DNA from: Candidatus Omnitrophota bacterium
GTDB taxonomy: Bacteria > Omnitrophota > Gorgyraeia > JABMRN01 > RBG-13-46-9
Direction of reading: 5' to 3'
DNA length: 64,000 nt
Assembly: GCA_024542975.1 (NCBI GenBank)
Contig: JAMXCZ010000001.1
Location: 24,141-88,140, forward strand
Position numbers and translations under genes: made by a program. The notes below the pieces were generated by a model. The model saw only the letters and a program-made list of their open reading frames with translations. It searched no databases and had not been told where the DNA came from. Numbering within the stretch: the stretch's first letter is position 1; each line of letters opens with the position of its first letter. Shown here piece after piece: positions 3,222-33,979 of the stretch.

Positions 3222-3222
3222 A

Positions 3223-6704: not shown

Positions 6705-6755
6705 CCCTATCCTGATCCTTTTCCGTTTTTTGTGTTCCGGTTTTTAGTTTTCTGC

Positions 6756-7034
6756 TCATGCAACATCGATCTTGTGCCCTTCCTTAAGTGTCACAACAGC
6801 CTTCTTCCAATCAGCTGTCTTACCTTCCACGAGCCGCACACGCTTCATCTTGCCCTTCATAGTTAAAGTGTTTACCTTTTTGACTTTTACCTTATATATT
6901 TCTTCTATCGCCTGTTTGATCTCAATTTTATTGGCGGTTTGCGCTACGCAAAAAAGGTATTTATTAAAATGTAAAAGATTCGAGCCTTTTTCTGTCCTGA
7001 GAGGGCTTGTAACTATGGCATAAGGGCTTTTCAT
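6756..7034 (-). CDS. rplW: 50S ribosomal protein L23
   Basis: 92 aa: …LHFNKYLFCVAQTANKIEIKQAIEEIYKVKVKKVNT…, L23 family. Synteny. Confidence 0.9.
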   Translation of the reverse strand: MKSPYAIVTSPLRTEKGSNLLHFNKYLFCVAQTANKIEIKQAIEEIYKVKVKKVNTLTMKGKMKRVRLVEGKTADWKKAVVTLKEGHKIDVA

Positions 7035-8354: not shown

Positions 8355-8370
8355 ATAATTCTCTCTGTTG

Positions 8371-8465
8371 CGCTGTCATTCCCGCTTCCGCGGGAATCCA
8401 TATTCTACATCTCGGGATCCCCGCTTCCGCGGGGATAAATTTCGCCCTATGATATAAGGCGAAAT
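8371..8465. promoter_or_regulatory. Intergenic rpsJ-rplC structured element: two tandem near-identical hairpins (attcccgc-ttcc-gcgggaat and atccccgc-ttcc-gcggggat) plus a 10-bp hairpin (aaatttcgcc…ggcgaaattt)
   Basis: Read directly from the sequence. The two 8-bp stems differ by one compensatory pair (t/a to c/g). Confidence 0.4.
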
Positions 8466-8801
8466 TTACTTTATTTCCACATTGACTCCGGCCGGCAAGT
8501 CGAGCCGCCTTAAGGAATCAATAGTTTTAGCAGTCGGGCTTATTATCTCGAGAAGTCGCTTGTGCGTCTTTATTTGAAACTGCTCACGTGACTTTTTATC
8601 GATATGAGGCGACCTTAAAACCGTAAAAATTTCCCTTTTTGTAGGAAGAGGCACCGGCCCTGCAACAACCGAGCCTGTTTTTTTTACCGTTTGAACGATT
8701 TCCTCACAGGCCAAGTCTAAAATCCTATGGTCGTAGGCCATAAGCTTTATCCGTATCCTTACCGACTTATCCTGTTTTACTTTTAATTGCTTTGCTGTCA
8801 T
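8466..8801 (-). CDS. rpsJ: 30S ribosomal protein S10
   Basis: …[70 protein letters not shown]…, S10 family. Confidence 0.95.
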
Positions 8802-8804
8802 CAG

Positions 8805-10001
8805 TTATTCGCTAATCTCCGTTACCACACCGGCTCCTACGGTGTGCCCGCCTTCGCGTATGGCGAAGCGCAGGCCTTTTTCCATTGCTATGGGCTCTAT
8901 GAGGACTATATCCATCGTTACGTTGTCGCCGGGCATCACCATTTCAACGTCTTTGGGCAGCGTAACGCTTCCGGTTACGTCGGTGGTTCTGAAGTAGAAC
9001 TGCGGCCTGTAGCCGTTAAAGAAGGGTGTGTGGCGGCCTCCCTCTTCTTTCGTAAGGATGTAGGCCTCTCCCTTGCATTTTGTGTGGGGGGTTATGGTGC
9101 CGGGTTTAGCGAGCACCTGGCCTCGCATGAGGTCCTTCTTCTCTACGCCTCTAAGGAGGACACCAATGTTATCGCCTGCCTGGCCGTGGTCGAGTATCTT
9201 TCGGAACATTTCAACGCCTGTTACTACGCTCTTCTTGGTGGGTTTAAGGCCTACGAGCTCTATCTCTTCGCCTGTTTTCACCTGGCCGCGTTCTACCCGG
9301 CCTGTGCCTACGGTGCCTCTTCCGGTTATGCTGAATACATCTTCTATCGGCATGAGGAAGGGCTTATCTATGTCTCTCTTGGGTGTGGGAATAAAGTCGT
9401 CTACGGCTTTCATCAGTTCAAATATGCATTTTACGGCCTCTGCGTCATCGGGAGAGCGCATGGCTTTGAGAGCGCTTCCTTTTACAACCGGCGTCTTATC
9501 TCCCGGGAACTTATATTTTGTCAGAAGCTCTCTTACTTCGAGTTCTACGAGGTCTAAGAGCTCTTTGTCATCTACGAGGTCTATCTTATTGAGGAAGACT
9601 ACGATTGCGGGAACGTTTACCTGGCGGGCTAAGAGTATGTGCTCCCTTGTCTGGGGCATGGGGCCGTCTGCGGCTGATACTACGAGTATGGCGCCGTCCA
9701 TCTGGGCTGCGCCGGTTATCATGTTTTTGATGTAGTCGGCGTGGCCGGGGCAGTCTATGTGGGCGTAATGCCGCTTTTCGGTCTCGTATTCAACGTGCGC
9801 TACTGCGATGGTAAGGATCTTGTTTTTGTCCCTTACCAATCCGCCTTTTGCGATTTCCGCATAGCTTTTGGCCTGAGCCTGGCCTTTTGTTGCAAGGACA
9901 GTGGTTATAGCGCTTGTGAGACAGGTCTTGCCGTGGTCAATATGTCCAATGGTGCCTACATTCACATGAGGTTTTGTGCGTTCAAACTTTTGCTTTGCCA
10001 T
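8805..10001 (-). CDS. tuf: Elongation factor Tu (copy 1, end of str operon)
   Basis: 398 aa with GHIDHGKT and DCPGHADY GTPase motifs. Full-length EF-Tu. Strong SD (aggagg) upstream. Confidence 0.98.
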
Positions 10002-10040
10002 TGTTTGGCCCTCCTATTTTTGAAATTCCGAACTTCAATG

Positions 10041-24198: not shown

Positions 24199-25401
24199 GT
24201 TATTCGCTAATCTCCGTTACCACACCGGCTCCTACGGTGTGCCCGCCTTCGCGTATGGCGAAGCGCAGGCCTTTTTCCATTGCTATGGGCTCTATGAGGA
24301 CTATATCCATCGTTACGTTGTCGCCGGGCATCACCATTTCAACGTCTTTGGGCAGCGTAACGCTTCCGGTTACGTCGGTGGTTCTGAAGTAGAACTGCGG
24401 CCTGTAGCCGTTAAAGAAGGGTGTGTGGCGGCCTCCCTCTTCTTTCGTAAGGATGTAGGCCTCTCCCTTGCATTTTGTGTGGGGGGTTATGGTGCCGGGT
24501 TTAGCGAGCACCTGGCCTCGCATGAGGTCCTTCTTCTCTACGCCTCTAAGGAGGACACCAATGTTATCGCCTGCCTGGCCGTGGTCGAGTATCTTTCGGA
24601 ACATTTCAACGCCTGTTACTACGCTCTTCTTGGTGGGTTTAAGGCCTACGAGCTCTATCTCTTCGCCTGTTTTCACCTGGCCGCGTTCTACCCGGCCTGT
24701 GCCTACGGTGCCTCTTCCGGTTATGCTGAATACATCTTCTATCGGCATGAGGAAGGGCTTATCTATGTCTCTCTTGGGTGTGGGAATAAAGTCGTCTACG
24801 GCTTTCATCAGTTCAAATATGCATTTTACGGCCTCTGCGTCATCGGGAGAGCGCATGGCTTTGAGAGCGCTTCCTTTTACAACCGGCGTCTTATCTCCCG
24901 GGAACTTATATTTTGTCAGAAGCTCTCTTACTTCGAGTTCTACGAGGTCTAAGAGCTCTTTGTCATCTACGAGGTCTATCTTATTGAGGAAGACTACGAT
25001 TGCGGGAACGTTTACCTGGCGGGCTAAGAGTATGTGCTCCCTTGTCTGGGGCATGGGGCCGTCTGCGGCTGATACTACGAGTATGGCGCCGTCCATCTGG
25101 GCTGCGCCGGTTATCATGTTTTTGATGTAGTCGGCGTGGCCGGGGCAGTCTATGTGGGCGTAATGCCGCTTTTCGGTCTCGTATTCAACGTGCGCTACTG
25201 CGATGGTAAGGATCTTGTTTTTGTCCCTTACCAATCCGCCTTTTGCGATTTCCGCATAGCTTTTGGCCTGAGCCTGGCCTTTTGTTGCAAGGACAGTGGT
25301 TATAGCGCTTGTGAGACAGGTCTTGCCGTGGTCAATATGTCCAATGGTGCCTACATTCACATGAGGTTTTGTGCGTTCAAACTTTTGCTTTGCCATTGTT
25401 T
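24199..25401. repeat. About 1.2-kb duplicate covering the tuf CDS plus SD region; the other copy is at 8804-10006
   Basis: The two tuf ORFs give identical 398-aa translations. Flanks checked by eye: identity starts at the stop codon and ends at the first mismatch just past the SD (g/a in ggccct/agccct). Confidence 0.9.
24200..25396 (-). CDS. tuf: Elongation factor Tu (copy 2, tufB-like)
   Basis: 398-aa translation identical to copy 1. Sits in the conserved tRNA-Thr / tuf / (rpmG) / tRNA-Trp / secE / nusG context. Confidence 0.98.
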
Positions 25402-25430
25402 AGCCCTCCTATTCATTAATAACCCACGAC

Positions 25431-26105
25431 TCATGACTTACCGCTTACAGCAGAGCCCATGATCGGCTTCGAACCGATGACCTCATCCTTACCATGGATG
25501 TGCTCTACCAACTGAGCTACATGGGCATATTCTCTCGCCCAATCTTTGATTATGCCTAAAAGTTTCGTATTGTGTACGTATATTGTAATCGTACCGAATT
25601 CCGAATGCCTCTTTACGCTTCCGCCGTTTCGGTTTTTCAAAATTGTCGTTTTTGTAAATTGGGTTATCGCGAGGCCTAGAAATTTTGCCCAGTACCCCTT
25701 CGCCTTTTTACGCGAAATATCCGGGTACACGATCAAAGACATTTTTATCTTATCGTTTTCCACTCCGCAGACAACTTTTAAAAATTTAACAAAAATTTTC
25801 ACGAGCGCGGGATTGGAATTGGAAAAACGCACTGAGTTTTTATTTTTTGTATTTCCTTCTGTGAGATAAAGCCCAAGCGCCATCGCCTTCAGATGGTCTT
25901 CTTCGGGTGTAAGATCTGACAGGATATCGAAGGGGTCACCGCTTCGGTTATTCTTGATGTAGGAAGCCTCTTTGTGGCTACGTATGGTGATCTTATTTAA
26001 AGACAGTACTCCGCGTACTTTTCTCGTCGAAATGCCATACATGGAGGCCACTTCACTCACTGAATTTCCGCTTCTGTAACTCCTAATGATTTCACCGGTT
26101 TCCAT
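25431..26105 (-). CDS. Hypothetical protein with N-terminal helix-turn-helix and a LAGLIDADG-like motif (possible homing-endonuclease-like); reading frame runs through tRNA-Thr
   Basis: ORF track 224 aa. HTH: EIIRSYRSGNSVSEVASMYGISTRKVRGVL. LAGLIDADG-like: AMALGLYLTEGNTKNKNSVRFSNSNPALVKIFVKFLK. The last 31 codons (25431-25526) are the antisense of tRNA-Thr with no in-frame stop before 25431, so the real C-terminus is uncertain. Confidence 0.45.
   Translation of the reverse strand: METGEIIRSYRSGNSVSEVASMYGISTRKVRGVLSLNKITIRSHKEASYIKNNRSGDPFDILSDLTPEEDHLKAMALGLYLTEGNTKNKNSVRFSNSNPALVKIFVKFLKVVCGVENDKIKMSLIVYPDISRKKAKGYWAKFLGLAITQFTKTTILKNRNGGSVKRHSEFGTITIYVHNTKLLGIIKDWAREYAHVAQLVEHIHGKDEVIGSKPIMGSAVSGKS
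25454..25526 (-). tRNA. thrT: tRNA-Thr (anticodon GGT)
   Basis: Reverse complement is GCCCATGTAGCTCAGTTGGTAGAGCACATCCATGGTAAGGATGAGGTCATCGGTTCGAAGCCGATCATGGGCT. Anticodon loop AUGGUAA. Directly upstream of tuf as in thrT-tufB. Confidence 0.85.
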
Positions 26106-26152
26106 GCTTTCCTGCTTCTGTAGGAGAAACTCGTTCAGGGTAACAAAGTCCT

Positions 26153-26182
26153 AAATATACCACATAAAGCCCGTTTGTCAAG
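26153..26182 (-). promoter_or_regulatory. Candidate sigma70-type promoter for the HTH/LAGLIDADG-like ORF (TTGACA -35, 17-18 nt spacer, TGgTATATT extended -10)
   Basis: Minus-strand read …ggcTTGACAaacgggctttatgtggTATATTtagg…, about 45 nt upstream of the ATG at 26105. Confidence 0.3.
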
Positions 26183-26221
26183 CCTTTTTTTAACTTTTTT
26201 TAGCTTTTTTATCATAGCTGT

Positions 26222-26351
26222 CCAAATTAGCTACCGTGTCATTCCTGTGAAGCTTGTCCCTGCGAAAGCAGGGACAAGCTTCACAGGAATGACAGAGAAA
26301 ACGGACTTTTGGCACAGTCTGTTCGCGGGAATGGCACGGTAGCAAATTTGG
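26222..26351. repeat. Nested inverted repeat: perfect 26-bp stem with GAAA tetraloop (26238-26293) flanked by 17-bp outer IR arms (26222-26238 and 26335-26351, 1 mismatch)
   Basis: Read directly: gtcattcctgtgaagcttgtccctgc-gaaa-gcagggacaagcttcacaggaatgac. Outer arms are ccaaattagctaccgtg and cacggtagcaaatttgg. Confidence 0.6.
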
Positions 26352-26398
26352 ACACGAGTGAAAAAGTACATGCAATTTTTAGCCGAACAGTTTACCTT

Positions 26399-26536
26399 CA
26401 TAGACGCGAGCGTGAAAACCTCTGCCGCGTTGAGGGCTTTATTGTATATCCTGACATCATCCATTGCGCCGCTGAAATAATATCCTCCCGCCTTTCCTAT
26501 GCTGAAAGGGGTGGTCATTCTATTTAACAAATCCAC
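26399..26536 (-). pseudogene. Remnant of a LamG/laminin-G-like (concanavalin-type) domain C-terminus
   Basis: Minus-strand ORF fragment …MTTPFSIGKAGGYYFSGAMDDVRIYNKALNAAEVFTLAS carries the characteristic LamG terminal motif (F.G.iDeVRIYNrALsaaEi). No upstream body; a stop lies immediately 5'. Confidence 0.35.
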
Positions 26537-26635
26537 TTTTCTTGTTACAGATGCATCTTTTTCCAGTACTCCATTTGCATAGAAATCAATATCTTCACCC
26601 CGTTTGCCTACAGTGATAGTTATATGCTGCCAGGT

Positions 26636-26796
26636 GAGAAAAAGGGGACGGTTCTCACTAAGATGTTCTGGATGAATGAGTTATGGCCAATTTATGCCTT
26701 ATTTAAAAAAACATGTAAAGGGTTGTGAAAATATCAATGAATAATTACGTAACTCCATGCTGCTTAATGAGACAGCAAGAACCGTCCCCTTTTTAT
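26636..26796. repeat. Long-range inverted repeat (17 bp exact, about 27 bp imperfect) separated by 122 nt, upstream of the protease gene
   Basis: Left arm gagaaaaaggggacggttctcactaag (26636-26662). Right arm cttaatgagacagcaagaaccgtcccctttttat (26763-26796). Exact core aaaaaggggacggttct / agaaccgtccccttttt. Confidence 0.5.
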
Positions 26797-26986
26797 GGTT
26801 CGCGCTAGTGGCGAACACTGCATCAATGTTAACTCTTACAAAAGTTAGCTATAATCGATTACCTTTTATGGGGCATCGGGTATACTTATTTTAGGTATAT
26901 AGCCGAGGTTTAAACCTTCTATCCGAGATGTTTTTTTGGCGATTAACTTAAAGTTTTGAAAAGTTTTGGAAGAGGGGGAAAATGAA

Positions 26987-29900
26987 ATGAAAACGAAAAG
27001 CATAGTCAGAATAGGTGCGATATTATGTTTCCTTGTTTTCGTAGCTGTGTTTTCTTCGGGAAATCCCGCATATGGGTTGTTGGATGAGAGTAGATCTAGA
27101 CAACGAAACCTGCTGGAAGCAGATCACCCCTACGCTCCCGGTGAGGTTTTGGTTAAGTTCAAAGAAGGGGTAGACCCGCAAGTAGCGCTCGAGAAGGGTA
27201 AAGTACGCGCCCAAAGCATTCAGCGCGCCTATTCTGTAAAGCCGGAGATAGCAAAATTTAAAAAAGACTACGCATTAGAAAGAGACCAAAACGGCTGGTA
27301 TTGGTTTAGGGGTAAAAACTACAAAGAAAGCGCCGATATCTCTGATGAGGAGTTCTTTCAGGAGGTTTACGCAGAGATGAGCCCTGAGAAAAAATCGCTC
27401 TATCGGACGTACAAAATAATCCTTCCCGAGAATATGAACGTTAAAGACGCAGTGATTAGATTACAACACGAGCCGTCTGTAGAATATGCCGAACCTAATT
27501 ATATTGCGAAAGCCTTTGCGGTGCCGAACGATCCTTATTACAACTCAAACGGAAGCTGGGGTCAGTCCTATGATGATTTGTGGGGGCTGAAGAAAATTCG
27601 GTGTCAAGCGGCTTGGAATGTCTCCCAGGGGGAAGGGGTGGTTGTCGCAGTGATAGATTCAGGGGTCGATTATAATCACGAAGATTTTTTCAAGGATGAA
27701 AACGGTAATGGCAGGTTAGACGAGGGTGAGCAATATAACATCTGGATAAATGAGGGCGAAATTCCGGGTAATGGTATCGATGATGACGCCAATGGCTATG
27801 TAGATGATATCTATGGTTATGACTTTGTTTATGGCGATCCAGATCCTTCCGATTTTTTTGGTCACGGTACCCATTGCGCCGGGACAATAGCCGCTGTTGG
27901 CAATAATAACTTGGGAGTTATTGGAGTTGCACCCAAGGCAAAGATTATGGTTCTTAAGGGGCTGAGCGACGACAGAGGATCCGGTAATAACGACACACTT
28001 GTAAATTGTATTAAGTATGCTGCGGATAATGGCGCGCATATTATCAGCAATTCCTGGGGAGGGCCAAGCGCACAAGCGTACAAAGATGTTTTTGCTTACG
28101 CCCAATCTCAAGGTTGTTTATCAATAGCTGCAGCGGGCAATAGCGGTGGGGATGAAATATTTTATCCTGCAGGCCTCTCAACTGTAATGGCTGTTTCCGC
28201 ATCCGATCACAATGACCAAATATGCCTTTTCTCTACTTACGGTGAGCACATAGAGGTTTCAGCTCCGGGTGGCGGCATACAAGATGAATTCGGCGGAGGC
28301 AGGGATGACCTATATAATATTTTATCCACCATGTCTGATAATTCAAAATTAGCTAAAAGTCACCCTAAACTTAAAATTTCCAATGGCTACTGGCGGATGG
28401 CAGGAACTTCCATGGCTTGTCCGCACGTAGCGGGCGTAGCCGCTTTGGCGCGTTCGATTTTTCCCGGTTTGACCAATGAAGAAATACGTCAGAAAATTCA
28501 AGCCGCTTCGAATGATATTGGCGAGGCGGGTAAAGATATTTATTTTGGCTACGGGCGAGTGGATGCATACGGCACTTTGCTAACTTTCGTTATTGATATA
28601 ACCTCTCCTCAACACCAAAGCTATATTCGCGGGAATGTAGATGTTTTTGGTAATGCCTTTGTTGGTGATGGCAAGTTTCAGAGCTATGAGCTTTACTGCG
28701 CTTCCAAAGATAATTCCGGCGAAGAGCCCCCTGTTTTGATTATCTCTTCCAATAATCCTGTCCAAGATGGATTTTTAACCCTGCCTGATAAGCCGTGGGA
28801 TACCACTCAATGCTCTGAAGGAAGCAATATTCTTACTCTAAAAGTTATTACTACAGACGGCGTTGAGTTGACAAGTTTTATCGGGGTAATTATCGACAAT
28901 GAGAATCAACCTCCCGAATTTATTAATCTTAGGGATAAACAGGTAGCCGTAGACGAAATTATTAGGTTTAAAGTAGAAGCGCAAGACCCGGATGACCCCA
29001 AACATCCTTTAGGATGGGGGGAATTAGTCTATTCCGCAGATAGCCTTCCTGAAGGTGCGGAGTTTAATCCGCAGACTCAAATCTTTTTCTGGCGTCCTGG
29101 CGAACTAGGCGTCTACGAAGTTAGTTTCAAGGTAAGCGACAGTGCTTATACCATAGCAAGAACCATAGCCATTACTACACATGTTATGCAGAAAATGCGG
29201 ATAACCACCGAACTTTCATACAAAGATTCCGCCCATATTTATATGGATAAGATTGTTTGGATGGACGATCGTAATAACGGCCAGCCTGATATTTATCTGT
29301 ACGATCTATCCACGGGTCGGGAGATTCAAGTGACCGATAGTAGTTATGCCGAGCTAGACCCTTTTGTTTACGAAGATAAAATTCTCTGGTGGGATGGCTC
29401 AAGCGAAATGTACGCTGAATACCCTTATATAAACTACGATATCTTCATGCGCACCTATGATTCTCTTACCGGCAAACTCGGCCCAATAATCCAGGTAACA
29501 ACCGACCCTCACGCACAATCCGTACCTAAAATGTACAAAGATAAAATTCTCTGGACTGATAACCGAAACGGCATGCTTGATGTTTACTTACGTACTTACG
29601 ATTCTTCTACGGGTGAGTTGGGCCCGGAAGTCGCAATAACTTCCGATCCCGACTACTATCAGTATCAGGCATCTATGTATGAAGATACGATTGTTTGGGC
29701 CGATGAACGAGTGGGCCAATTGTATTATTTTGGTATTTACATGCGTACTTATGATTCTTCCACAGGTGAGTTAGGGCCGGAAATTGGAGTATGTACGAAT
29801 CCTAGCATGCAGATAGGTCCTCTTATCAATAGAGATAGAATTGTCTGGCTGGACTGGCGAAATGGAGGCATTCAAAACCCCGATATTTATATGCGTGGGT

Positions 29901-30649
29901 ATGACTCTTCCACCGGGGAGCTTGGCCCAGAGATGCCGCTTGTTACCAACCCTTCAAAACAGGTGTGTGGAAGAATATATGAAAACAATGTCCTCTGGGT
30001 TGATGATCGCTTTGCTGATGGTCTACCATTTGCGGCATATGATTTCGACATCTATATGTATAATTTATCTACCGATCAAGAAATCCGGATAACTGATGAG
30101 ACAGGATATCAGTATGGTCCCTCTATGTATCATAACCGAATTGTCTGGTCTGGTTACGATTTAGAAGATAAAGGCTATGCTATTTATATGCTCTCAATAT
30201 TTTTATCCCCTCAAATTACCTCTCTTAGCCCGACTACGGTTTCAATTGGTTCCACTATTACCATAACAGGCAATAACTTTGGCTATACCGTGGAAAGAGC
30301 AGGCGTGAAATTTGCTAATGGAGTTCATGCGCTCATTGACTCATGGTCTAACGATGAGATTACCTGTAGGGTGCCGGAAGGGGCGCAATCAGGTTTGTTA
30401 AAAGTGATTACAAGAGGGGGAGAAAGCGAAGGGGTTCAGATAACAGTGGGGGTTCCTAGCGGTCTACCCGGTGATGTCAACGGTGACGGCAAAGTCGACA
30501 TACTCGACCTCAATATCGTAGCCCGGGCGTTCGGCTCGAGTAAAGGCGATCCCGGCTGGGATGCGAGGGCTGACCTTGATATAAGCGGCACAGTTGGCAT
30601 AGGCGACCTCATAATCGTGGCAAGGAATTTCGGGAAAGTGGCGGGTTGA
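26987..30649 (+). CDS. Secreted subtilisin-like serine protease (peptidase S8) with N-terminal fervidolysin-like prodomain, seven-blade TolB/PD40-like beta-propeller, IPT/TIG domain and C-terminal type-I dockerin
   Basis: Signal peptide MKTKSIVRIGAILCFLVFVAVFSSGNPAYG. Catalytic triad VVVAVIDSGVD / HGTHCAGTIAA / GTSMACPHVAGVAAL. Seven repeats of about 50 aa (…IVW.D.R.G..DIY.RTYDSSTGELGPE…). IPT-like PQITSLSPTTVSIGSTITITGNNFG… . Dockerin GDVNGDGKVDILDLNIVARAFG…DLDISGTVGIGDLIIVARNFG. Start taken as ATG 26987 (SD agaggggga 8 nt upstream); the ORF-finder TTG at 26966 was rejected. Confidence 0.9.
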   Translation: MKTKSIVRIGAILCFLVFVAVFSSGNPAYGLLDESRSRQRNLLEADHPYAPGEVLVKFKEGVDPQVALEKGKVRAQSIQRAYSVKPEIAKFKKDYALERDQNGWYWFRGKNYKESADISDEEFFQEVYAEMSPEKKSLYRTYKIILPENMNVKDAVIRLQHEPSVEYAEPNYIAKAFAVPNDPYYNSNGSWGQSYDDLWGLKKIRCQAAWNVSQGEGVVVAVIDSGVDYNHEDFFKDENGNGRLDEGEQYNIWINEGEIPGNGIDDDANGYVDDIYGYDFVYGDPDPSDFFGHGTHCAGTIAAVGNNNLGVIGVAPKAKIMVLKGLSDDRGSGNNDTLVNCIKYAADNGAHIISNSWGGPSAQAYKDVFAYAQSQGCLSIAAAGNSGGDEIFYPAGLSTVMAVSASDHNDQICLFSTYGEHIEVSAPGGGIQDEFGGGRDDLYNILSTMSDNSKLAKSHPKLKISNGYWRMAGTSMACPHVAGVAALARSIFPGLTNEEIRQKIQAASNDIGEAGKDIYFGYGRVDAYGTLLTFVIDITSPQHQSYIRGNVDVFGNAFVGDGKFQSYELYCASKDNSGEEPPVLIISSNNPVQDGFLTLPDKPWDTTQCSEGSNILTLKVITTDGVELTSFIGVIIDNENQPPEFINLRDKQVAVDEIIRFKVEAQDPDDPKHPLGWGELVYSADSLPEGAEFNPQTQIFFWRPGELGVYEVSFKVSDSAYTIARTIAITTHVMQKMRITTELSYKDSAHIYMDKIVWMDDRNNGQPDIYLYDLSTGREIQVTDSSYAELDPFVYEDKILWWDGSSEMYAEYPYINYDIFMRTYDSLTGKLGPIIQVTTDPHAQSVPKMYKDKILWTDNRNGMLDVYLRTYDSSTGELGPEVAITSDPDYYQYQASMYEDTIVWADERVGQLYYFGIYMRTYDSSTGELGPEIGVCTNPSMQIGPLINRDRIVWLDWRNGGIQNPDIYMRGYDSSTGELGPEMPLVTNPSKQVCGRIYENNVLWVDDRFADGLPFAAYDFDIYMYNLSTDQEIRITDETGYQYGPSMYHNRIVWSGYDLEDKGYAIYMLSIFLSPQITSLSPTTVSIGSTITITGNNFGYTVERAGVKFANGVHALIDSWSNDEITCRVPEGAQSGLLKVITRGGESEGVQITVGVPSGLPGDVNGDGKVDILDLNIVARAFGSSKGDPGWDARADLDISGTVGIGDLIIVARNFGKVAG
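29215..30190 (+). repeat. Intragenic tandem repeats (about 150-nt period, seven units) encoding the beta-propeller blades
   Basis: Nucleotide-level repeats visible, e.g. atgcgtacttatgattcttccacaggtgagttagggccggaa / ttacgtacttacgattcttctacgggtgagttgggcccggaa / atgcgtgggtatgactcttccaccggggagcttggcccagag. Confidence 0.55.
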
Positions 30650-30721
30650 AATAGGAGCCTTTTCACGTCCCGGGCAGATGCTATCTTTCGGGCAAAGCTC
30701 CACAAAATTTTTTCGAGTGAT

Positions 30722-31294
30722 TTAGTTTGAGCGGAGATGCTGGTCTACGTACTGGGCAATCATCTCGCGTATTTTGGCCGGCGGCAGGACTTTGAAATAG
30801 GCGCGGATAAGAGCGTGCGCAATTTCGTGTAAGAGTGTCGCCTCCGTACTCGTATTTGCGTAAGTGGTTATGGAATTGGTCGCGTGAGAATAAAAGGCGA
30901 TCGGGCCTCTTTCGTAGTGACGGTACACGTATATTTTTATGTGGAACCGCGCGGGATACATGTCGAGAATGGCCTCGACTTTTTCAACCAGCCTATCGAT
31001 CCTGTTTTTGGCGAGGCCGGGATATGAGTATATGTTTATCTCCTGGTCGCCCGTTATGTTCCAGAGAAAGGCCTCCAGGTCTTCTTCGTGAGTATAGAAT
31101 ATCGTGGTATATGCAGTCGAAAACGTTTCGAATTCTTCCGTCGCCTCGAGGCCGGTAATTTCTTCGACCGCTTCCTTGTTTTCGATCGCTTCTATGGATT
31201 CGGAATCTTCGGCAGGGGTTTCGGCGGCGATTGAGTAAGGTGCTTGAATAAAAAGGAGTGAGACAACAAGGAGGCTCTGGAAAAGTTTGCTCAT
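30722..31294 (-). CDS. Secreted hypothetical protein with C-terminal HExxH motif (putative small Zn-metallopeptidase)
   Basis: Signal peptide MSKLFQSLLVVSLLFIQAPYSIAAE, acidic linker, …TEATLLHEIAHALIRAY… . Confidence 0.55.
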   Translation of the reverse strand: MSKLFQSLLVVSLLFIQAPYSIAAETPAEDSESIEAIENKEAVEEITGLEATEEFETFSTAYTTIFYTHEEDLEAFLWNITGDQEINIYSYPGLAKNRIDRLVEKVEAILDMYPARFHIKIYVYRHYERGPIAFYSHATNSITTYANTSTEATLLHEIAHALIRAYFKVLPPAKIREMIAQYVDQHLRSN

Positions 31295-31298
31295 ACGG

Positions 31299-31874
31299 CT
31301 AGGAGGTTTTGAAAAAGGCGATTTTATCTTTTATTTTGGATATCGCATCCTTTACCTCTTTCACATGCGCGTCATTCGCATACCGCCCCGCAAAATCATC
31401 CGCCTCTCCCGTGGCGCGCTTTACCTCTTTAAGGCGACTGTCAATTGCGTCCAATGCCTTGTTGAGCGCCGTTTGCATTTCCTTAAGCTGGTCGGCTTTG
31501 CGCAATTTCACGCGTCCGACAAAATTCCCTTCGGCCATCTCACCCAGGGTTTTCTCAAACCTGAAAAGTGGGCCTGCGATCCTGTGAGAAAGCAGGACAA
31601 ATATAACGCTGCCCGCAAGCGCCATCGCCGTCCCGACAACGAGCGCAATTATCGCAAAGCTTGCGACAAAGAAGCTGGAGGTCCTTTCGATTACAAAGTG
31701 CGACCCGGAATAACCGGTCGTGAGCGTCTCGCCTGACATGTGCATAAAAAGCCCCGTGATAAAAAGCGCCTCGACAAGCAAAAGAAAAATGAAACCGAGA
31801 ATAAACTTTGTCTGGAAGGATTTTTTTATAAAATAATTTTTCCGCATCATTGGTTTTTTCCCGAATGCCTTCAT
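31299..31874 (-). CDS. Membrane protein with two TM helices and a HAMP domain, no recognisable output domain
   Basis: TM1 FILGFIFLLLVEALFITGLF, TM2 FFVASFAIIALVVGTAMALAGSVIFVLL, then a HAMP-like LSHRIAGPLFRFEKTLGEMAEGNFVGRVKLRKADQLKEMQTALNKALD. Confidence 0.55.
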   Translation of the reverse strand: MKAFGKKPMMRKNYFIKKSFQTKFILGFIFLLLVEALFITGLFMHMSGETLTTGYSGSHFVIERTSSFFVASFAIIALVVGTAMALAGSVIFVLLSHRIAGPLFRFEKTLGEMAEGNFVGRVKLRKADQLKEMQTALNKALDAIDSRLKEVKRATGEADDFAGRYANDAHVKEVKDAISKIKDKIAFFKTS

Positions 31875-32500
31875 TTTACGACTTCCTTTGCTATTAGTTT
31901 TTTGTTGATCTGTATTTCTGATCCCATTTTTTTCTCCTCCAGCCAGCTCTCGAGCTTCTCGGCCTTCTTTCTTCTCGTTATGGCTTCTTTTACCCGGTCA
32001 TGGATCTCTTCAAGAGGCGGAAGATTGGAGTTTTTCCCCGTAATGCTCTTGTAGTATAGCTCCACTTCCCCGTCAGTTACGAAAACGTAACGGTCTAATT
32101 CCTCATTTTTACGGTTAACGAAATCCCGTATCAGCGTCTGCTCCCAGAACGCCTTTATCGTATCAACAAAACCCTGTTCTTCAGCCATTTTTTTATCCAT
32201 GGCTTCCTGTATAATGAGTTGCCTCTTAATTAAATTATCGACCAGGTCATCCAACATCTTCCCGTCAACCTCGAGGGTGGGATCCTGCCTCACCCTGTTT
32301 GAAATCTCACGCCTAAGTTCTTTGAGGTAAATGGGTTTGCCATTTACGGTCGCAACGGAGGTAGTTTCTTCTTTTTCTTGGGAGCCGCAGCCAGGCAGGA
32401 ACAAAAGAGCCGCAAGTATCATTGCCGAAAACGATCTGTACTTTGCGATTTCCTTCATGTGTTTCATTTTATTCCTTTTTAAACATTTTAGCAAGAACAA
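31871..32500 (-). CDS. Lipoprotein with SurA N-terminal-like chaperone domain
   Basis: Lipobox LFLPGCGS; …TVNGKPIYLKELRREI… resembles SurA/PpiD N-domain. Likely start at internal M (MKHMKEIAKY…). Overlaps the downstream gene by 4 nt. Confidence 0.5.
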   Translation of the reverse strand: MFLLKCLKRNKMKHMKEIAKYRSFSAMILAALLFLPGCGSQEKEETTSVATVNGKPIYLKELRREISNRVRQDPTLEVDGKMLDDLVDNLIKRQLIIQEAMDKKMAEEQGFVDTIKAFWEQTLIRDFVNRKNEELDRYVFVTDGEVELYYKSITGKNSNLPPLEEIHDRVKEAITRRKKAEKLESWLEEKKMGSEIQINKKLIAKEVVK

Positions 32501-32628
32501 AAATCCCTACGTGCGTATGGAGCGTTCTTCTTCGCTGAATATTTACATATTCAGCTTCGAAGAAACTGCTTTTCTGCTTCGCGAATTCCTGCGAAGCCGA
32601 AAGCGAAAGCATTTCGGCGAAGCAGAAG

Positions 32629-32699
32629 AGCGGGAGAGCGGAATCGAACCGCCGTGTGTAGCTTGGAAGGCTACCGTTCTACCATTGAACTACTCCCGC
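32629..32699 (-). tRNA. glyT: tRNA-Gly (anticodon TCC)
   Basis: Reverse complement is GCGGGAGTAGTTCAATGGTAGAACGGTAGCCTTCCAAGCTACACACGGCGGTTCGATTCCGCTCTCCCGCT. Anticodon loop CUUCCAA. Confidence 0.85.
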
Positions 32700-32842
32700 A
32701 TTTGCGAAGCAAATGCGATTCTGAGGCAGTGCAGAAGATGCGACGACCTGAGGCATACCTTCGTAAGGTCCTTCGTCAAAACGAATTGCTCCCTTGAGTC
32801 ACAATTTGTGTTTTCCCCAGGATTACTTCTGCTTCGCAGAAG

Positions 32843-32929
32843 TGGTGGGGAGAGAAGGATTCGCACCTTCGTAGGCTAAAAGCCGCCAGATTTACAGTCT
32901 GGTCCGTTTGACTACTCCGGCATCTCCCC
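32843..32929 (-). tRNA. tyrU: tRNA-Tyr (anticodon GTA), long variable arm, CCA encoded
   Basis: Reverse complement is GGGGAGATGCCGGAGTAGTCAAACGGACCAGACTGTAAATCTGGCGGCTTTTAGCCTACGAAGGTGCGAATCCTTCTCTCCCCACCA. Confidence 0.85.
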
Positions 32930-33033
32930 AAATTTTCAAAGAAAAAATTTCGTAAAGGTCCTTCGCTCTGCAAAAAATGCTCCTATTCGTCGCATTTTTT
33001 ATGTCGCTCAGGATCACTTCTGCTTCGCAGAAG

Positions 33034-33109
33034 TGGAGCTAGCGGTCCGAATTGAACGGACGACATCCTCATTACAAGTGAGGTGCTCTACCAACTGAGC
33101 TACGCTAGC
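33034..33109 (-). tRNA. thrU: tRNA-Thr (anticodon TGT), CCA encoded
   Basis: Reverse complement is GCTAGCGTAGCTCAGTTGGTAGAGCACCTCACTTGTAATGAGGATGTCGTCCGTTCAATTCGGACCGCTAGCTCCA. Confidence 0.85.
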
Positions 33110-33121
33110 AGGTATCTAACT

Positions 33122-33979
33122 TTAAAGAATTTTCTTTATCGCTTGCGGTAGCTTTTCCAGGAGATCAGTGGCGATCAGGCTAAACTGGCCTTTTTCTTTT
33201 GCTGCCAGATCTCCGGCCAGGCCGTGCAGGTATACGCCTATCACGGTAGCACTGTACGGATTTATTCCCTGCCCCACAAAGCTTGCTATCATGCCGGTAA
33301 GCACGTCCCCTACACCGGCTGTGCTCATCCCCGAATTTCCTGTCCGGTTTATATAGGTGTTACCTTTCGGATCCGCGATAACGGTCTTGCGGCCTTTAAG
33401 GGCCAGGATTACTTTATGCTTTTTCGCAAAGTCACTCGCGGTTTTTTCTCTGTTAGCCTGGATGGCGCGCACGTCTTTGCCGACGAGGCGCGACATCTCG
33501 CCCGGATGCGGCGTAAGCACTGTAGGAAGGATGCGTTTTTTCAGAATATCCGCATTTCCTGCGAGGGCAATTATACCATCCGCGTCAAGTATCACGGGTT
33601 TATTAATTTTCTCGAGCAAATTTCTTACGAGCTTTTGGGTTTCAGGGTGCCGCGAGATGCCGGGGCCAACAACCACAGCGTCGGTTTTTTTAACAAACTG
33701 CAGAATTATTTTTTCCGCAGGAAGGGCGAGCGCACCGTCCTTGACTTCGGGAAGCGCAAGCGTCATAGCCTCGGTAAGCTTGGTTTCCATAATAGCATTC
33801 AGGCTCTTGGGAACCCCGCAGGTGACGAGGCCGCTTCCGGAACGCATCGCCGCCTGACTCGCGAGAAAAGCCGCGCCCGTCATGCCCTGCGATCCGGCGA
33901 GTACAAAAACATGCCCGAAATCTCCCTTATGAGAATCTTCTCTCCGGCGCGGAATCTTCGAAATGTGCTTCTTTACCAT
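33122..33979 (-). CDS. nnr: ADP-dependent NAD(P)H-hydrate dehydratase (YjeF C-terminal / Nnr family)
   Basis: …HKGDFGHVFVLAGSQGMTGAAFLASQAAMRSGSGLV… is the carbohydrate-kinase-like YjeF_C fold. Start taken at MVKKHISK (ATGA overlap with the acpS stop). Confidence 0.8.
   Translation of the reverse strand: MVKKHISKIPRRREDSHKGDFGHVFVLAGSQGMTGAAFLASQAAMRSGSGLVTCGVPKSLNAIMETKLTEAMTLALPEVKDGALALPAEKIILQFVKKTDAVVVGPGISRHPETQKLVRNLLEKINKPVILDADGIIALAGNADILKKRILPTVLTPHPGEMSRLVGKDVRAIQANREKTASDFAKKHKVILALKGRKTVIADPKGNTYINRTGNSGMSTAGVGDVLTGMIASFVGQGINPYSATVIGVYLHGLAGDLAAKEKGQFSLIATDLLEKLPQAIKKIL

What the first reader, a model, noticed from the sequence alone, without database searches (positions are those of the whole stretch)
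25527..32628. Conserved thrU-tyrU-glyT-thrT-tufB tRNA operon split by a 7-kb block of accessory-looking genes
On the minus strand the tRNAs occur in exactly the E. coli order: Thr(TGT), Tyr(GTA), Gly(TCC), then Thr(GGT) immediately 5' of the second tuf. Between tRNA-Gly (32629) and tRNA-Thr(GGT) (25526) lie about 7.1 kb holding the window's only plus-strand gene (the S8-propeller-dockerin protease), an HTH/LAGLIDADG-like ORF abutting the tRNA, a LamG gene remnant, two large inverted-repeat structures and a three-gene envelope cluster. A gene fragment, a homing-endonuclease-like ORF and reversed strand polarity together suggest insertion or rearrangement into a tRNA operon.
Basis: partly seen in the sequence, partly recalled or inferred. 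Interest (0 to 1): 0.7.

Follow-up and report, generated by a model that had tools for sequence, protein, structure and literature searches.

The report
Protein gene overlapping a tRNA gene
The 7-kb gap in this tRNA cluster is partly a real, ordinary local insertion. The gene next to tRNA-Thr is not part of it: it is an old, conserved gene whose reading frame runs into the tRNA gene, so the same DNA encodes both the end of a protein and the start of a tRNA.

Summary
On the minus strand lie Thr(TGT), Tyr, Gly(TCC), 7.1 kb, then Thr(GGT)-tuf.

1. ORFX (25431-26105, HTH plus a LAGLIDADG-like domain) and its strong promoter are not inserted. All 30 relatives that carry an ORFX homologue and include its 3' end (Omnitrophota wherever the record names a taxon) have ORFX directly before tRNA-Thr(GGT), as does the window. 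ORFX diverges in step with neighbouring housekeeping genes (r = 0.95). dN/dS is 0.08-0.16.
2. The SurA_N/HAMP/190-aa cluster also lies upstream of the ORFX promoter in four relatives' loci. In two (L018, L019) it directly abuts the promoter.
3. About 4.5 kb (about 26213-30721) is specific to this genome: the S8 protease, which is a codon-usage outlier, a LamG fragment and the hairpins. It has no integrase and no flanking repeats.

In 8 relatives tRNA-Gly lies 190-310 bp from ORFX.

The notable part is that ORFX reads through the whole tRNA gene. In one sub-lineage ORFX has its own stop codon before a complete tRNA. There it keeps a diverged copy of the first nine tRNA-derived codons, with the amino acids conserved through synonymous changes. 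So the tRNA-derived tail is under selection as protein.

A paralogue (ORFY) sits the same way before tRNA-Tyr genes that carry a group I intron. ORFX's function is inferred, not shown. Most likely it is a domesticated relative of a homing endonuclease.

The parts
33034..33109 (-). tRNA-Thr(TGT), first tRNA of the upstream cluster
   Evidence: ARAGORN; Rfam 70.9 bits
32843..32929 (-). tRNA-Tyr(GTA). It is intact here: no group I intron and no ORFY paralogue
32628..32699 (-). tRNA-Gly(TCC), last tRNA of the upstream cluster
31871..32500 (-). SurA_N-like chaperone-domain gene, first gene of the three-gene envelope cluster
   Evidence: Pfam SurA_N_3 E 1.6e-8. Homologues lie upstream of ORFX in L007, L018, L019 and L026. 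Codon usage within the window's range
31299..31874 (-). Membrane protein with a HAMP-like segment
   Evidence: Weak HAMP match. Homologues in L007, L018, L019, L026. Native-like codon usage
30722..31294 (-). 190-aa secreted-looking protein with an HEIAH (HExxH) motif and no family match
   Evidence: Translation; no Pfam or NCBIfam match. Its homologue's stop codon directly abuts the ORFX promoter in L018/L019
26213..30721 (.). DNA specific to this genome (about 4.5 kb), lying between the three-gene cluster and the ORFX promoter
   Evidence: blastn homology to relatives ends at 26201-26212 and resumes at 30735. L018/L019 join these two points directly. L020, with ORFX 91% identical, diverges at the same point
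26966..30649 (+). S8 serine protease with fervidolysin-type prodomain, Ig-like domain, beta-propeller repeats, TIG and dockerin. It is the window's only plus-strand gene
   Evidence: Pfam and NCBIfam. GC3 0.424 and synonymous-codon score -0.036, against 0.052 +/- 0.020 for the other genes. Best non-self homologue is 44% identical, and the named hits are mostly Omnitrophota
26639..26794 (.). Inverted repeat with perfect 17-nt arms and a 122-nt spacer. The inner arm coincides with the truncation point of the LamG fragment
26405..26640 (-). LamG (Laminin_G_3) gene remnant: C-terminal part only, with no start and no N-terminal half
   Evidence: Pfam profile positions 116-150 of 151; translations
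26208..26365 (.). Long nested hairpin: a 27-bp perfect palindrome inside 44-nt imperfect arms. It is unique in the window
   Evidence: Fold -89.3 kcal/mol, z = -13.9
26154..26212 (-). Conserved promoter of the ORFX-tRNA-Thr(GGT)-tuf unit: an A-rich upstream tract, TTGACA, a spacer of 16 nt by the scan's count (first hexamer starts at 26181, second ends at 26154), then TG-TATATT
   Evidence: Best promoter-like site in 24-34 kb, 11 of 12 matches plus TG. Alignable in all 15 loci compared
26106..26153 (-). 5' untranslated region of ORFX, with the conserved motif CCTACAGA at 26117-26124
   Evidence: Alignment of 15 loci; sequence
25431..26105 (-). ORFX: 224 aa, an N-terminal helix-turn-helix plus an alpha/beta domain with a LAGLIDADG-like motif (LKAMALGLYLTEG). 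Codons 194-218 are the tRNA-Thr(GGT) gene
25453..25526 (-). tRNA-Thr(GGT), lying entirely inside the ORFX reading frame. Its first 27 nt encode the end of ORFX's last predicted helix
24200..25396 (-). tuf (EF-Tu), second copy. It is 100% identical over 1203 nt to the copy at 8805-10001

Best explanation
The window comes from an Omnitrophota genome. The 7.1-kb interval is a three-layer composite, not one insertion.

Layer 1 (oldest) is a transcription unit with its own strong promoter: promoter, 5'UTR, ORFX, tRNA-Thr(GGT), tuf. ORFX occupies the tRNA's 5' leader. Its frame continues straight into the tRNA gene, so the first 27 nt of the tRNA also encode the last turns of ORFX's C-terminal helix. 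This arrangement is inherited vertically across a whole clade and is under strong purifying selection.

Layer 2 is a SurA_N / HAMP / 190-aa envelope cluster, shared with some relatives.

Layer 3 is about 4.5 kb found only in this genome: an S8 protease of a fast-evolving Omnitrophota family, a LamG pseudogene fragment and long hairpins. It was placed by illegitimate recombination at a recurrent breakpoint just upstream of the ORFX promoter. Because the extra DNA lies between two predicted transcription units, expression of the tRNAs and tuf should not be disturbed.

How ORFX works (inferred, not shown). ORFX descends from a family of HTH-LAGLIDADG-like genes that live in tRNA leaders and spacers, where RNase P and the 3'-end processing enzymes cut the tRNAs free. 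Such a site is as harmless for an insertion as an intron. Its paralogue ORFY is tied to a group I intron in tRNA-Tyr, which resembles collaborative homing.

In this clade ORFX looks domesticated. It most likely acts as a DNA-binding (possibly autoregulatory) protein made from the unprocessed leader of the tRNA-Thr/tuf transcript. RNase P cleavage at the tRNA 5' end would leave an ORFX mRNA with no stop codon and no codons for the last helix turns. Full-length protein could then come only from transcripts translated before they are processed.
For: tRNAs and genes.

ORFX reads through the tRNA. The stop is at 25431 and the tRNA lies at 25453-25526. 81 homologues at 56-91% identity were found. 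In a 60-sequence alignment, E192, Y193, Q198, V200 and E201 are invariant, and the 49 read-through members continue into ..VAQLVEHIHGKD... The junction DNA has the tRNA's first base directly after the Tyr codon in 13 of the 14 sequences compared (the window and 12 loci).

The locus is conserved. All 30 relatives' loci that carry an ORFX homologue and include its 3' end have it directly before tRNA-Thr(GGT), as does the window.

The gene is real and inherited vertically. dN/dS is 0.079 (window vs L020) and 0.164 (L004 vs L005). In deeper pairs pS is 0.74-0.86 against pN 0.10-0.16. Pairwise ORFX identity tracks Nnr, PdxJ and AcpS with r = 0.954 over 45 pairs.

The tail is protein. Five loci where ORFX has its own stop keep S-Y-[VI]-[AS]-Q-[IL]-V-E-[HR], with synonymous differences in 8 of 9 codons, followed by a complete tRNA 2-113 nt downstream. 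These forms are nested among read-through forms in a neighbour-joining tree. AlphaFold puts residues 180-205 in one helix.

Promoter.

Layering. tRNA-Gly lies 190-310 bp from ORFX in 8 loci. The cluster abuts the promoter in L018/L019. The DNA upstream of the promoter differs in nearly all the relatives I examined. The protease is a codon-usage outlier (z = -4.4) whose nearest homologue is 44% identical.

Family context. Six of six ORFY loci have a group I intron in tRNA-Tyr, and none of the 8 intact tRNA-Tyr loci (the window and seven relatives) has ORFY. Distant family members also end in tRNA-derived peptides.

Domestication. The putative catalytic acid E83 is replaced by H, N or Q in 17 of 60 sequences that stay intact and conserved.
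Against: - No transcript, protein or activity data exist. The promoter, the co-transcription and the RNase P competition are all inferred from sequence.
- Beyond residue 205 or so the read-through tail is predicted to be disordered, and its stop position varies, so most of the overlap may be incidental.
- In ORFY the read-through occurs in two different frames, which shows that read-through as such need not be functional.
- The neighbour-joining tree has no bootstrap support.
- The order in which layers 2 and 3 arose rests on a small number of metagenome-derived loci.
- Correlated divergence with flanking genes could in part reflect co-conversion of linked DNA.
Confidence: 0.72

Rival explanations
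1. One reading: the whole 7.1 kb, including the HTH/LAGLIDADG-like ORF, is one accessory block inserted into a thrU-tyrU-glyT-thrT-tufB operon. The insertion was perhaps driven by the homing-endonuclease-like gene or by a tRNA-targeting element.
For: The extra DNA is real relative to the 8 relatives where Gly lies 190-310 bp from ORFX. It contains a gene fragment, a gene on the opposite strand with odd codon usage, and long hairpins.
Against: ORFX and its promoter are present and syntenic in all the relatives' loci that carry it, and they evolve vertically. The three-gene cluster is shared with L007, L018, L019 and L026. There are no tRNA-derived direct repeats, no integrase and no transposase. 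The DNA specific to this genome ends upstream of the promoter, not at the tRNA.
Confidence: 0.05
2. ORFX is still an active, selfish, free-standing homing endonuclease. It cuts ORFX-less tRNA-Thr(GGT) loci at the leader/tRNA junction and copies itself in. Its conservation reflects selection for continued homing. The read-through is a side effect of inserting exactly at the tRNA's first base.
Against: ORFX divergence mirrors the flanking housekeeping genes (r = 0.954). It is present in 8 of 8 metagenome contigs with tuf at least 89% identical to the window's, and absent only from more distant lineages. No degenerate copy was seen among 81 homologues. The key acid is lost in a whole subclade that remains under purifying selection (pN 0.115 against pS 0.855). 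It has its own conserved strong promoter and 5'UTR.
Confidence: 0.2
3. The read-through into the tRNA has no function. ORFX effectively ends at Tyr193, and the tRNA-encoded residues are a tolerated, meaningless extension. The overlap is then an annotation curiosity.
For: Residues 207-224 are predicted to be disordered. Stop positions after the tRNA vary between relatives. ORFY reads into tRNA-Tyr in two different frames or stops just before it. Most members of the wider family end near the position equivalent to Tyr193.
Against: In five loci where the tail is no longer part of a tRNA, its nine residues are kept through many synonymous substitutions. The predicted last helix runs through residues 194-205. 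No homologue has a stop codon between Tyr193 and the tail.
Confidence: 0.2
4. Nothing was inserted. The genes between Gly and Thr(GGT) are the ancestral arrangement, and the relatives with Gly next to ORFX have lost them.
For: The three-gene cluster has native-like codon usage. It is found upstream of ORFX in four other loci (L007, L018, L019, L026).
Against: Gly-ORFX adjacency occurs across the deepest splits of the ORFX clade (L013 and L017 as well as L002-L009). The DNA upstream of the promoter is different in nearly every lineage. The protease segment is absent from the closest relatives and is compositionally atypical.
Confidence: 0.08

Closest known systems
E. coli tufB operon (thrU-tyrU-glyT-thrT-tufB), followed by secE-nusG-rplKAJL-rpoBC
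   Same: Same four tRNAs with the same anticodons in the same order, with Thr(GGT) directly before tuf. In relatives tuf is followed by secE, nusG, L11, L1, L10, L12 and rpoBC.
   Different: A protein gene (ORFX) and a conserved strong promoter lie between Gly and Thr(GGT). The four tRNAs are therefore predicted to belong to two transcription units. In this genome a further 6.4 kb separates them. In other Omnitrophota the Thr-Tyr-Gly cluster is not followed by Thr(GGT)-tuf at all.
Free-standing homing endonucleases and collaborative (trans) homing, e.g. F-CphI with the cyanophage psbA intron and T4 mobE with I-TevIII (PMC3984707, PMC2790892, PMC6083498)
   Same: [quoted passage not shown] ORFY abuts tRNA-Tyr genes carrying a 205-nt intron in 6 of 6 loci. 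ORFX is its paralogue in the same relative position before another tRNA.
   Different: The ORFX tRNA has no intron. ORFX is fixed, vertically inherited and under strong purifying selection. It is chromosomal in a bacterium rather than in a phage. It overlaps its host gene in frame. Nuclease activity is untested.
WhiA: a bacterial transcription factor built from degenerate LAGLIDADG domains plus a helix-turn-helix
   Different: WhiA has two LAGLIDADG-like domains and a C-terminal HTH (my own knowledge). ORFX has one such domain and an N-terminal HTH. There is no detectable sequence similarity.
Genomic islands and integrative elements that target tRNA genes
   Same: Variable accessory DNA next to tRNA genes.
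   Different: No integrase, no direct repeat of a tRNA 3' end, and the variable DNA lies upstream of a promoter rather than at a tRNA 3' end.
Group I introns at position 35/36 of bacterial tRNA genes (PMC13011429)
   Same: The tRNA-Tyr intron in relatives L004, L006, L009 and L021-L023 lies between anticodon positions 35 and 36. It matches Rfam RF00028 at 82-107 bits. It has no internal ORF, like most bacterial tRNA introns.
   Different: That paper reports this site as enriched in Patescibacteria and rare in other phyla, and does not mention Omnitrophota. It looked for endonuclease genes only inside introns. Here the candidate gene lies outside, in the tRNA's leader. The window itself has no intron.

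Membership tests
tufB-type tRNA operon (thrU-tyrU-glyT-thrT-tufB) | Order Thr(UGU)-Tyr(GUA)-Gly(UCC)-Thr(GGU)-tuf on one strand | tested here: met
tufB-type tRNA operon (thrU-tyrU-glyT-thrT-tufB) | The four tRNAs are contiguous | tested here: not met
   7.1 kb lies between Gly and Thr(GGT) in the window. In the relatives with Gly closest, ORFX and its promoter still lie between them
tufB-type tRNA operon (thrU-tyrU-glyT-thrT-tufB) | All four tRNAs and tuf are co-transcribed from a single promoter upstream of the first tRNA | not testable with these tools
   Needs transcript mapping. A conserved consensus promoter upstream of ORFX predicts two transcription units
LAGLIDADG homing endonuclease | LAGLIDADG helix motif ending in a conserved acidic residue | tested here: inconclusive
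   The motif LKAMALGLYLTEG is present and highly conserved. The terminal Glu is found in 43 of 60 sequences and is replaced by His, Asn or Gln in 17
LAGLIDADG homing endonuclease | Match to a curated LAGLIDADG sequence model | tested here: not met
   No Pfam or NCBIfam LAGLIDADG match for ORFX. One distant family member matches LAGLIDADG_3 below threshold, E 0.0088. A profile search against PDB sequences matches only the HTH
LAGLIDADG homing endonuclease | Alpha-beta-beta-alpha-beta-beta-alpha fold | tested here: inconclusive
LAGLIDADG homing endonuclease | Sporadic distribution and mobility, with a tree that disagrees with the host's | tested here: not met
   r = 0.954 with flanking housekeeping genes. 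Present in all sampled contigs of the clade and absent only from more distant lineages
LAGLIDADG homing endonuclease | Site-specific DNA cleavage | not testable with these tools
   Needs an enzyme assay
Collaborative homing pair (free-standing endonuclease gene plus ORF-less group I intron) | A group I intron in the adjacent host gene | tested here: not met
   tRNA-Thr(GGT) is intact, and no intron match is found anywhere in 25300-33200 even at E up to 1. The feature is met for the paralogue ORFY in relatives
tRNA-targeting integrative element / genomic island | Integrase or recombinase gene in the block | tested here: not met
   Pfam and NCBIfam scans of all block ORFs
tRNA-targeting integrative element / genomic island | Flanking direct repeats derived from the tRNA 3' end | tested here: not met
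   The only long direct repeat spanning the block is the similarity between the two tRNA-Thr genes themselves
WhiA-type domesticated LAGLIDADG regulator | Two degenerate LAGLIDADG domains followed by a C-terminal HTH | tested here: not met
   The model shows an N-terminal HTH (residues 3-52) and a single alpha/beta domain (67-205)

The most novel reading that the evidence does not exclude
ORFX and tRNA-Thr(GGT) form a true dual-coding pair: 27 nt serve both as the tRNA's acceptor/D-arm and as codons for a selected helix of a protein. Making the full-length protein and maturing the tRNA (RNase P cleavage) would then be mutually exclusive on any one transcript. That would couple the level of a DNA-binding protein to tRNA processing and translation at the head of the tuf / secE-nusG / ribosomal protein / rpoBC gene block.

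More broadly, ORFX would be the domesticated member of a large, undescribed family of HTH-LAGLIDADG-like genes: about 900 clusters at 50% identity with E below 1e-10. These genes use tRNA leaders and inter-tRNA spacers as a safe site, relying on the cell's tRNA-processing enzymes the way introns rely on splicing. [quoted passage not shown]
Probability: 0.35. Interest if true: 0.8.

Novelty: new variant of a known kind. Interest (0 to 1): 0.6.

Why it matters
The insertion itself is ordinary. It shows only that the boundary upstream of one promoter is a recurrent rearrangement point in these genomes.

The ORFX-tRNA pair matters more, for four reasons.
- Conserved same-strand overlaps between a protein gene and a tRNA gene, with evidence that the tRNA-derived codons are selected as protein, are to my knowledge (no targeted literature search was made for such overlaps) not a described feature of bacterial genomes.
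- The pair gives a concrete, testable case of a protein whose synthesis should compete with RNase P processing.
- It points to tRNA leaders and spacers as a home for endonuclease-like genes. Surveys that look for such genes only inside introns would miss this. It may help explain how ORF-less tRNA introns spread.
- There is a practical consequence. Gene callers will report these ORFs as 'hypothetical proteins' overlapping tRNAs, and curators may delete them as artefacts.

Tried and rejected
- Direct repeats of the tRNA-Thr 3' end at the block's flanks: none. Only the similarity between the two tRNA-Thr genes appears.
- Other copies of the two inverted repeats, which would indicate a MITE: none in the window or in the 20 loci held at that time. 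Public collections were not searched for them.
- A relic of a group I intron, or any other known RNA, in 25300-33200: none at E up to 1. Only spurious hairpin matches appeared.
- Sequence search of ORFX against PDB: nothing for the single sequence. The profile matched only a designed HTH repeat protein, 8vd6.
- Foldseek against PDB: no significant or LAGLIDADG hit. The AlphaFold database library was not available.
- A metagenome scan with an alignment of distant family members failed because no stretch was conserved enough. I used the single scan for the tRNA 43-mer instead.
- Horizontal transfer of the protease from another phylum: rejected, because the named homologues are mostly Omnitrophota.
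- Chimeric assembly as the cause of the 4.5 kb: unlikely. Both flanks are collinear with relatives, and the protease is recorded on a 91.9-kb NCBI contig.
- Base pairing between the conserved 5'UTR motif CCTACAGA and the tRNA 5' end: only 5 bp by eye, so not pursued.
- Homology between the ORFX promoter and the leaders of ORFX-less loci: not evident. The exact ancestral insertion point of ORFX could not be reconstructed.
- Literature searches for Omnitrophota tRNA introns, homing endonucleases, or endonuclease genes in tRNA leaders found nothing relevant in the held library.
- My first correlation of ORFX against neighbouring genes wrongly included an ORFY locus. I recomputed it without that locus.

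Full report
**1.

ARAGORN and Rfam agree on six tRNAs in the window, all on the minus strand. Read in the direction of transcription they are Thr(TGT) 33109-33034, Tyr(GTA) 32929-32843 and Gly(TCC) 32699-32628. After 7.1 kb comes Thr(GGT) 25526-25453, then tuf (25396-24200) and tRNA-Trp. This is the order of the E. coli tufB operon (my own knowledge).

The interval holds five ORFs and a gene fragment:
- a SurA_N-like gene, 31871-32500;
- a membrane/HAMP-like gene, 31299-31874;
- a 190-aa ORF with no family match, 30722-31294;
- a 1227-aa plus-strand protease (S8, propeller, TIG, dockerin), 26966-30649;
- the C-terminal third of a LamG domain, about 26405-26640;
- a 224-aa ORF, 25431-26105, called ORFX here.

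Both inverted repeats are real and unique in the window. The larger one folds at -89 kcal/mol, z = -13.9. The plus-strand ORFs elsewhere that I tested have no Pfam match and overlap ribosomal protein genes on the other strand. So the protease is the only convincing plus-strand gene.

**2. Source**

The protease is 100% identical to an NCBI protein from an Omnitrophica metagenome-assembled genome, on a 91.9-kb contig. Every named homologue of ORFX and of its paralogue is Omnitrophota. (Some records are titled 'uncultured Planctomycetia', a binning label.)

**3. What relatives show: three layers**

I collected the window plus 31 loci that carry an ORFX homologue. They came from species-representative genomes, from contigs encoding ORFX homologues, and from a metagenome search for the tRNA's first 43 nt. 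In all 30 loci that include the ORF's 3' end, ORFX lies directly before tRNA-Thr(GGT), as it does in the window. tuf follows wherever the contig continues.

Many contigs stop just after the tRNA. The likely reason is that tuf is duplicated: in the window the two copies are identical over 1203 nt, which would break short-read assemblies.

In 8 loci (L002, L003, L004, L006, L008, L009, L013, L017) tRNA-Gly(TCC) ends only about 190-310 bp before the ORFX start. These loci span the deepest branches of the ORFX tree. The simplest ancestral order is therefore Thr-Tyr-Gly-[promoter-ORFX/Thr(GGT)]-tuf.

The DNA immediately upstream of the ORFX promoter differs in nearly all the relatives I examined:
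- a HAMP-GGDEF gene and two unknown genes in L001;
- housekeeping genes on the other strand in the complete chromosome L005;
- a 3890-aa kinase-like gene in L015;
- unrelated sequence in L020, whose ORFX is 91% identical to the window's.

L003 and L008 instead carry 2.2 kb and 5.4 kb between Tyr and Gly.

The SurA_N/HAMP/190-aa cluster is found upstream of ORFX in L007, L018 and L019 as well. Two of its genes are also in L026. In L018/L019 (ORFX 83% identical) the last gene's stop codon abuts the promoter directly.

blastn homology between the window and its relatives stops at 26201-26212 and resumes at 30735. So about 4.5 kb (about 26213-30721) is specific to this genome. It holds the nested hairpin, the LamG remnant, the second inverted repeat and the protease.

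The protease is the clearest compositional outlier among the 50 genes I scored. Its GC3 is 0.424 against 0.48-0.61 for the others. Its synonymous-codon score is -0.036 against 0.052 +/- 0.020. Its best non-self homologue is only 44% identical and belongs to a large family of multidomain Omnitrophota proteases. The three-gene cluster has native-like codon usage.

I found no integrase, no transposase and no tRNA-derived flanking repeats.

**4. A conserved promoter makes this two transcription units**

All 15 loci aligned share an A-rich tract, then TTGACA, then a spacer (16 nt in the window by the scan's count), then TG-n-TATAxT, followed by a 5'UTR with the invariant motif CCTACAGA about 10 nt before the start codon. 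In the window this is the best promoter-like site between 24 and 34 kb (26181-26154; 11 of 12 matches plus TG).

The variable DNA always lies upstream of this promoter. It therefore separates two predicted units and does not break one. This is inferred from sequence only.

**5. ORFX reads through the tRNA gene**

The ORFX frame runs ...W-A-R-E-Y | A-H-V-A-Q-L-V-E-H-I-H-G-K-D.... The bar marks the first base of the mature tRNA (GCC CAT GTA GCT CAG TTG GTA GAG CAC ...). The stop codon is at 25431-25433, 20 nt after the tRNA's 3' end.

In 13 of the 14 junction sequences compared (the window and 12 loci) the tRNA's first base follows the Tyr codon directly. In the 60-sequence alignment, W189, E192, Y193, Q198, V200 and E201 are invariant.

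ORFX is a real gene under strong constraint:
- dN/dS is 0.079 (window vs L020) and 0.164 (L004 vs L005).
- Deeper pairs have saturated synonymous sites (pS 0.74-0.86) with pN of only 0.10-0.16.
- Mean pairwise identity is 69% for ORFX, against 64% for Nnr and 63% for PdxJ next door.
- ORFX identity tracks these neighbours with r = 0.954 over 45 locus pairs, as tightly as the neighbours track each other (0.89). The pairs are not independent, so I use this figure descriptively.

**6. The tRNA-derived tail is selected as protein**

One monophyletic sub-lineage (the roughly 202-aa forms) has its own stop codon. In five such loci ORFX ends ...E-Y-S-Y-[V/I]-[A/S]-Q-[I/L]-V-E-[H/R]-stop, and a complete tRNA-Thr(GGT) follows 2-113 nt later.

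The nine tail codons are a diverged copy of the tRNA's first 27 nt. Between loci they differ mostly by synonymous changes: TCT/TCA, TAT/TAC, GTT/GTA, GCC/GCT, CAG/CAA, ATC/ATA/ATT, GTG/GTT/GTC/GTA and GAG/GAA. The few amino-acid changes are conservative. Once freed from the tRNA constraint, the tail is still kept as protein.

AlphaFold (60-sequence alignment, mean pLDDT 82.6) places residues 180-205 in one helix that runs across the junction. Residues 207-224 are predicted to be disordered.

In a neighbour-joining tree rooted on the paralogue, the own-stop forms are nested among read-through forms. More distant relatives (P0082, P0083, P0084, P0086) also read into a Thr(GGT)-like tRNA. Read-through therefore appears ancestral, and the own-stop form appears to be a later resolution by duplication of the tRNA's 5' end. 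The tree has no support values, so I hold this direction of change with moderate confidence.

In either direction, codons that derive from tRNA sequence became part of a protein.

**7. Family context**

A paralogue about 32% identical, called ORFY here, lies between tRNA-Thr(TGT) and tRNA-Tyr in L004, L006 and L009. It has 497 homologues, all Omnitrophota where named.

- In L004 its stop codon (TAA) directly abuts the first base of tRNA-Tyr.
- In other members the frame runs into tRNA-Tyr in two different frames, and on into an intron.
- All six ORFY loci examined have a group I intron in tRNA-Tyr (RF00028, 82-107 bits).
- None of the 8 intact tRNA-Tyr loci (the window and seven relatives) has ORFY.
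- In L004 the intron is 205 nt and lies between anticodon positions 35 and 36. Removing it restores a tRNA-Tyr that ARAGORN recognises.

A profile search finds 909 clusters (at 50% identity) with E below 1e-10. Most are about 200 aa long and end at the position equivalent to Tyr193. Several end in peptides such as ..AEVAQW or ..AEIAQLVEH that look like translated tRNA 5' ends. The family as a whole thus seems to live directly upstream of tRNA genes. I verified this at the DNA level only for ORFX and ORFY.

**8. What ORFX is**

The rest (residues 67-205) is an alpha/beta domain beginning with LKAMALGLYLTEG, which resembles a LAGLIDADG helix. Support for that assignment is modest:
- Foldseek finds none.
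- ORFX has no Pfam LAGLIDADG match. One distant relative matches below threshold.
- The link between ORFY and a group I intron is independent circumstantial support.

The residue at the position of the catalytic acid is Glu in 43 of 60 sequences and His, Asn or Gln in 17. That subclade is still under purifying selection.

Among 13 metagenome contigs with the identical tRNA 5' 43-mer, the 8 with tuf at least 89% identical to the window's all carry ORFX. The 5 without it have tuf 77-88% identical and a short, different leader. ORFX is therefore fixed in one clade, not sporadic.

**9. How it most likely works**

Shown:
- the overlap between ORFX and the tRNA gene;
- its conservation across the clade;
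- selection on the tail as protein;
- the conserved promoter sequence;
- the layered structure of the interval.

Inferred:
- The promoter drives one transcript carrying ORFX, tRNA-Thr and tuf.
- RNase P cutting at the tRNA's 5' end would leave an ORFX mRNA with no stop codon and no codons for the last helix turns. Only transcripts translated before processing would give complete protein; the rest would be handled by ribosome rescue.
- ORFX is a domesticated descendant of a leader-resident endonuclease-like gene, and now acts as a DNA-binding, possibly autoregulatory, factor.

I put about 0.45 on domestication with a non-nuclease role and about 0.2 on an active selfish endonuclease. The remainder goes to other or unknown roles.

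In L004-L006 the ORFX frame ends on top of the tuf start (ATGGCTAA). That would allow translational coupling, but it is not general.

**10. Comparison with known systems, and novelty**

The insertion (layers 2 and 3) is an ordinary local rearrangement.

The closest known parallels to ORFX/ORFY are free-standing homing endonucleases and collaborative homing (PMC3984707), and WhiA-type domesticated LAGLIDADG regulators. ORFX fails or leaves open several defining features of each; see the membership table.

A recent survey of bacterial tRNA introns looked for endonuclease genes only inside introns. It reports site 35/36 as typical of Patescibacteria and does not mention Omnitrophota (PMC13011429).

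I found no paper in the held library describing endonuclease-like genes in tRNA leaders or Omnitrophota tRNA introns. That is absence from this library only, not proof that nothing has been published.

**11. Caveats**

- All relatives are metagenome-derived and many contigs are short.
- There are no expression data.
- The fold assignment is tentative.
- The tree is a simple distance tree without support values.
- The mechanism that placed the 4.5 kb is unknown.

Noticed in passing
L004:4055-4945; also L006 about 8065-8885, L009 about 2557-3354, L021/L022/L023 about 6001-6900: A paralogue of ORFX (ORFY, about 32% identical, 497 homologues) fills the spacer between tRNA-Thr(TGT) and tRNA-Tyr. 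Its stop codon abuts tRNA-Tyr, or its frame reads into it. [quoted passage not shown] Loci with an intact tRNA-Tyr, including the window, have neither. This looks like a collaborative-homing pair in a bacterial chromosome.
   Followed up: partly
window 8804-10006 and 24199-25401: The two tuf copies are 100% identical over 1203 nt: the coding sequence plus 1 and 5 flanking bases. This implies recent gene conversion. It probably explains why relatives' contigs break just after tRNA-Thr(GGT).
   Followed up: yes
window 32610-32628, 32826-32844, 33017-33035: Each of the three upstream tRNAs (Gly, Tyr, Thr-TGT) is followed directly at its 3' end by the same short palindrome (CTTCTGCTTCGCAGAAG or a variant). 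Around Tyr and Thr it is part of a 62-nt repeat. This may be a processing or termination signal. tRNA-Thr(GGT) lacks it.
   Followed up: no
window 26117-26124 (motif) within the 5'UTR 26106-26153: The motif CCTACAGA, about 10 nt upstream of the ORFX start codon, is invariant in 15 loci that otherwise differ a great deal. It could be an operator, a ribosome-binding element or part of an RNA structure.
   Followed up: no
window 30722-31294 (-): The 190-aa protein with no family match has a signal-peptide-like N-terminus and an HEIAH (HExxH) motif near its C-terminus. It may be a small secreted metallopeptidase-like protein.
   Followed up: no
L004, L005, L006: junction of tRNA-Thr(GGT) and tuf: In these relatives the ORFX frame runs through the tRNA and the tuf ribosome-binding site, and stops on top of the tuf start (ATGGCTAA). 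This would permit translational coupling of ORFX and tuf. Other relatives stop earlier.
   Followed up: partly
ORFX residues 2-50; proteins P0104, P0110, P0143 and others: The N-terminal HTH of ORFX matches proteins that consist of 7-15 tandem copies of the same HTH unit (up to 927 aa). It also matches a designed 'CAP repeat' protein in the PDB (8vd6, E 6.6e-8).
   Followed up: no
L024, L028, L031, L032, L033: These loci have a tRNA-Thr(GGT) 5' half identical to the window's over 43 nt but no ORFX. They share a different short leader that is conserved among themselves (..TCAAGCGGATGGTGGAG..). In two of them tRNA-Gly lies on the opposite strand.
   Followed up: partly
L021-L023 (other Omnitrophota lineages): The upstream synteny (FtsH, FolP, PdxJ, AcpS, Nnr, Thr(TGT), ORFY/Tyr) is kept. 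But Gly is followed by thyA, gpsA and other genes, not by Thr(GGT)-tuf. So the E. coli-like four-tRNA order is not universal in the phylum.
   Followed up: no
window 53528-54058 (-): A 176-aa protein that combines a bactofilin domain with a C-terminal HTH_17 DNA-binding domain.
   Followed up: no
L026 (reverse-complement orientation), about 1-910: A roughly 300-aa ORF, rich in basic residues and transposase-like, lies next to the SurA_N/HAMP genes upstream of ORFX. It is the only mobile-element-like gene seen near any of these loci.
   Followed up: no
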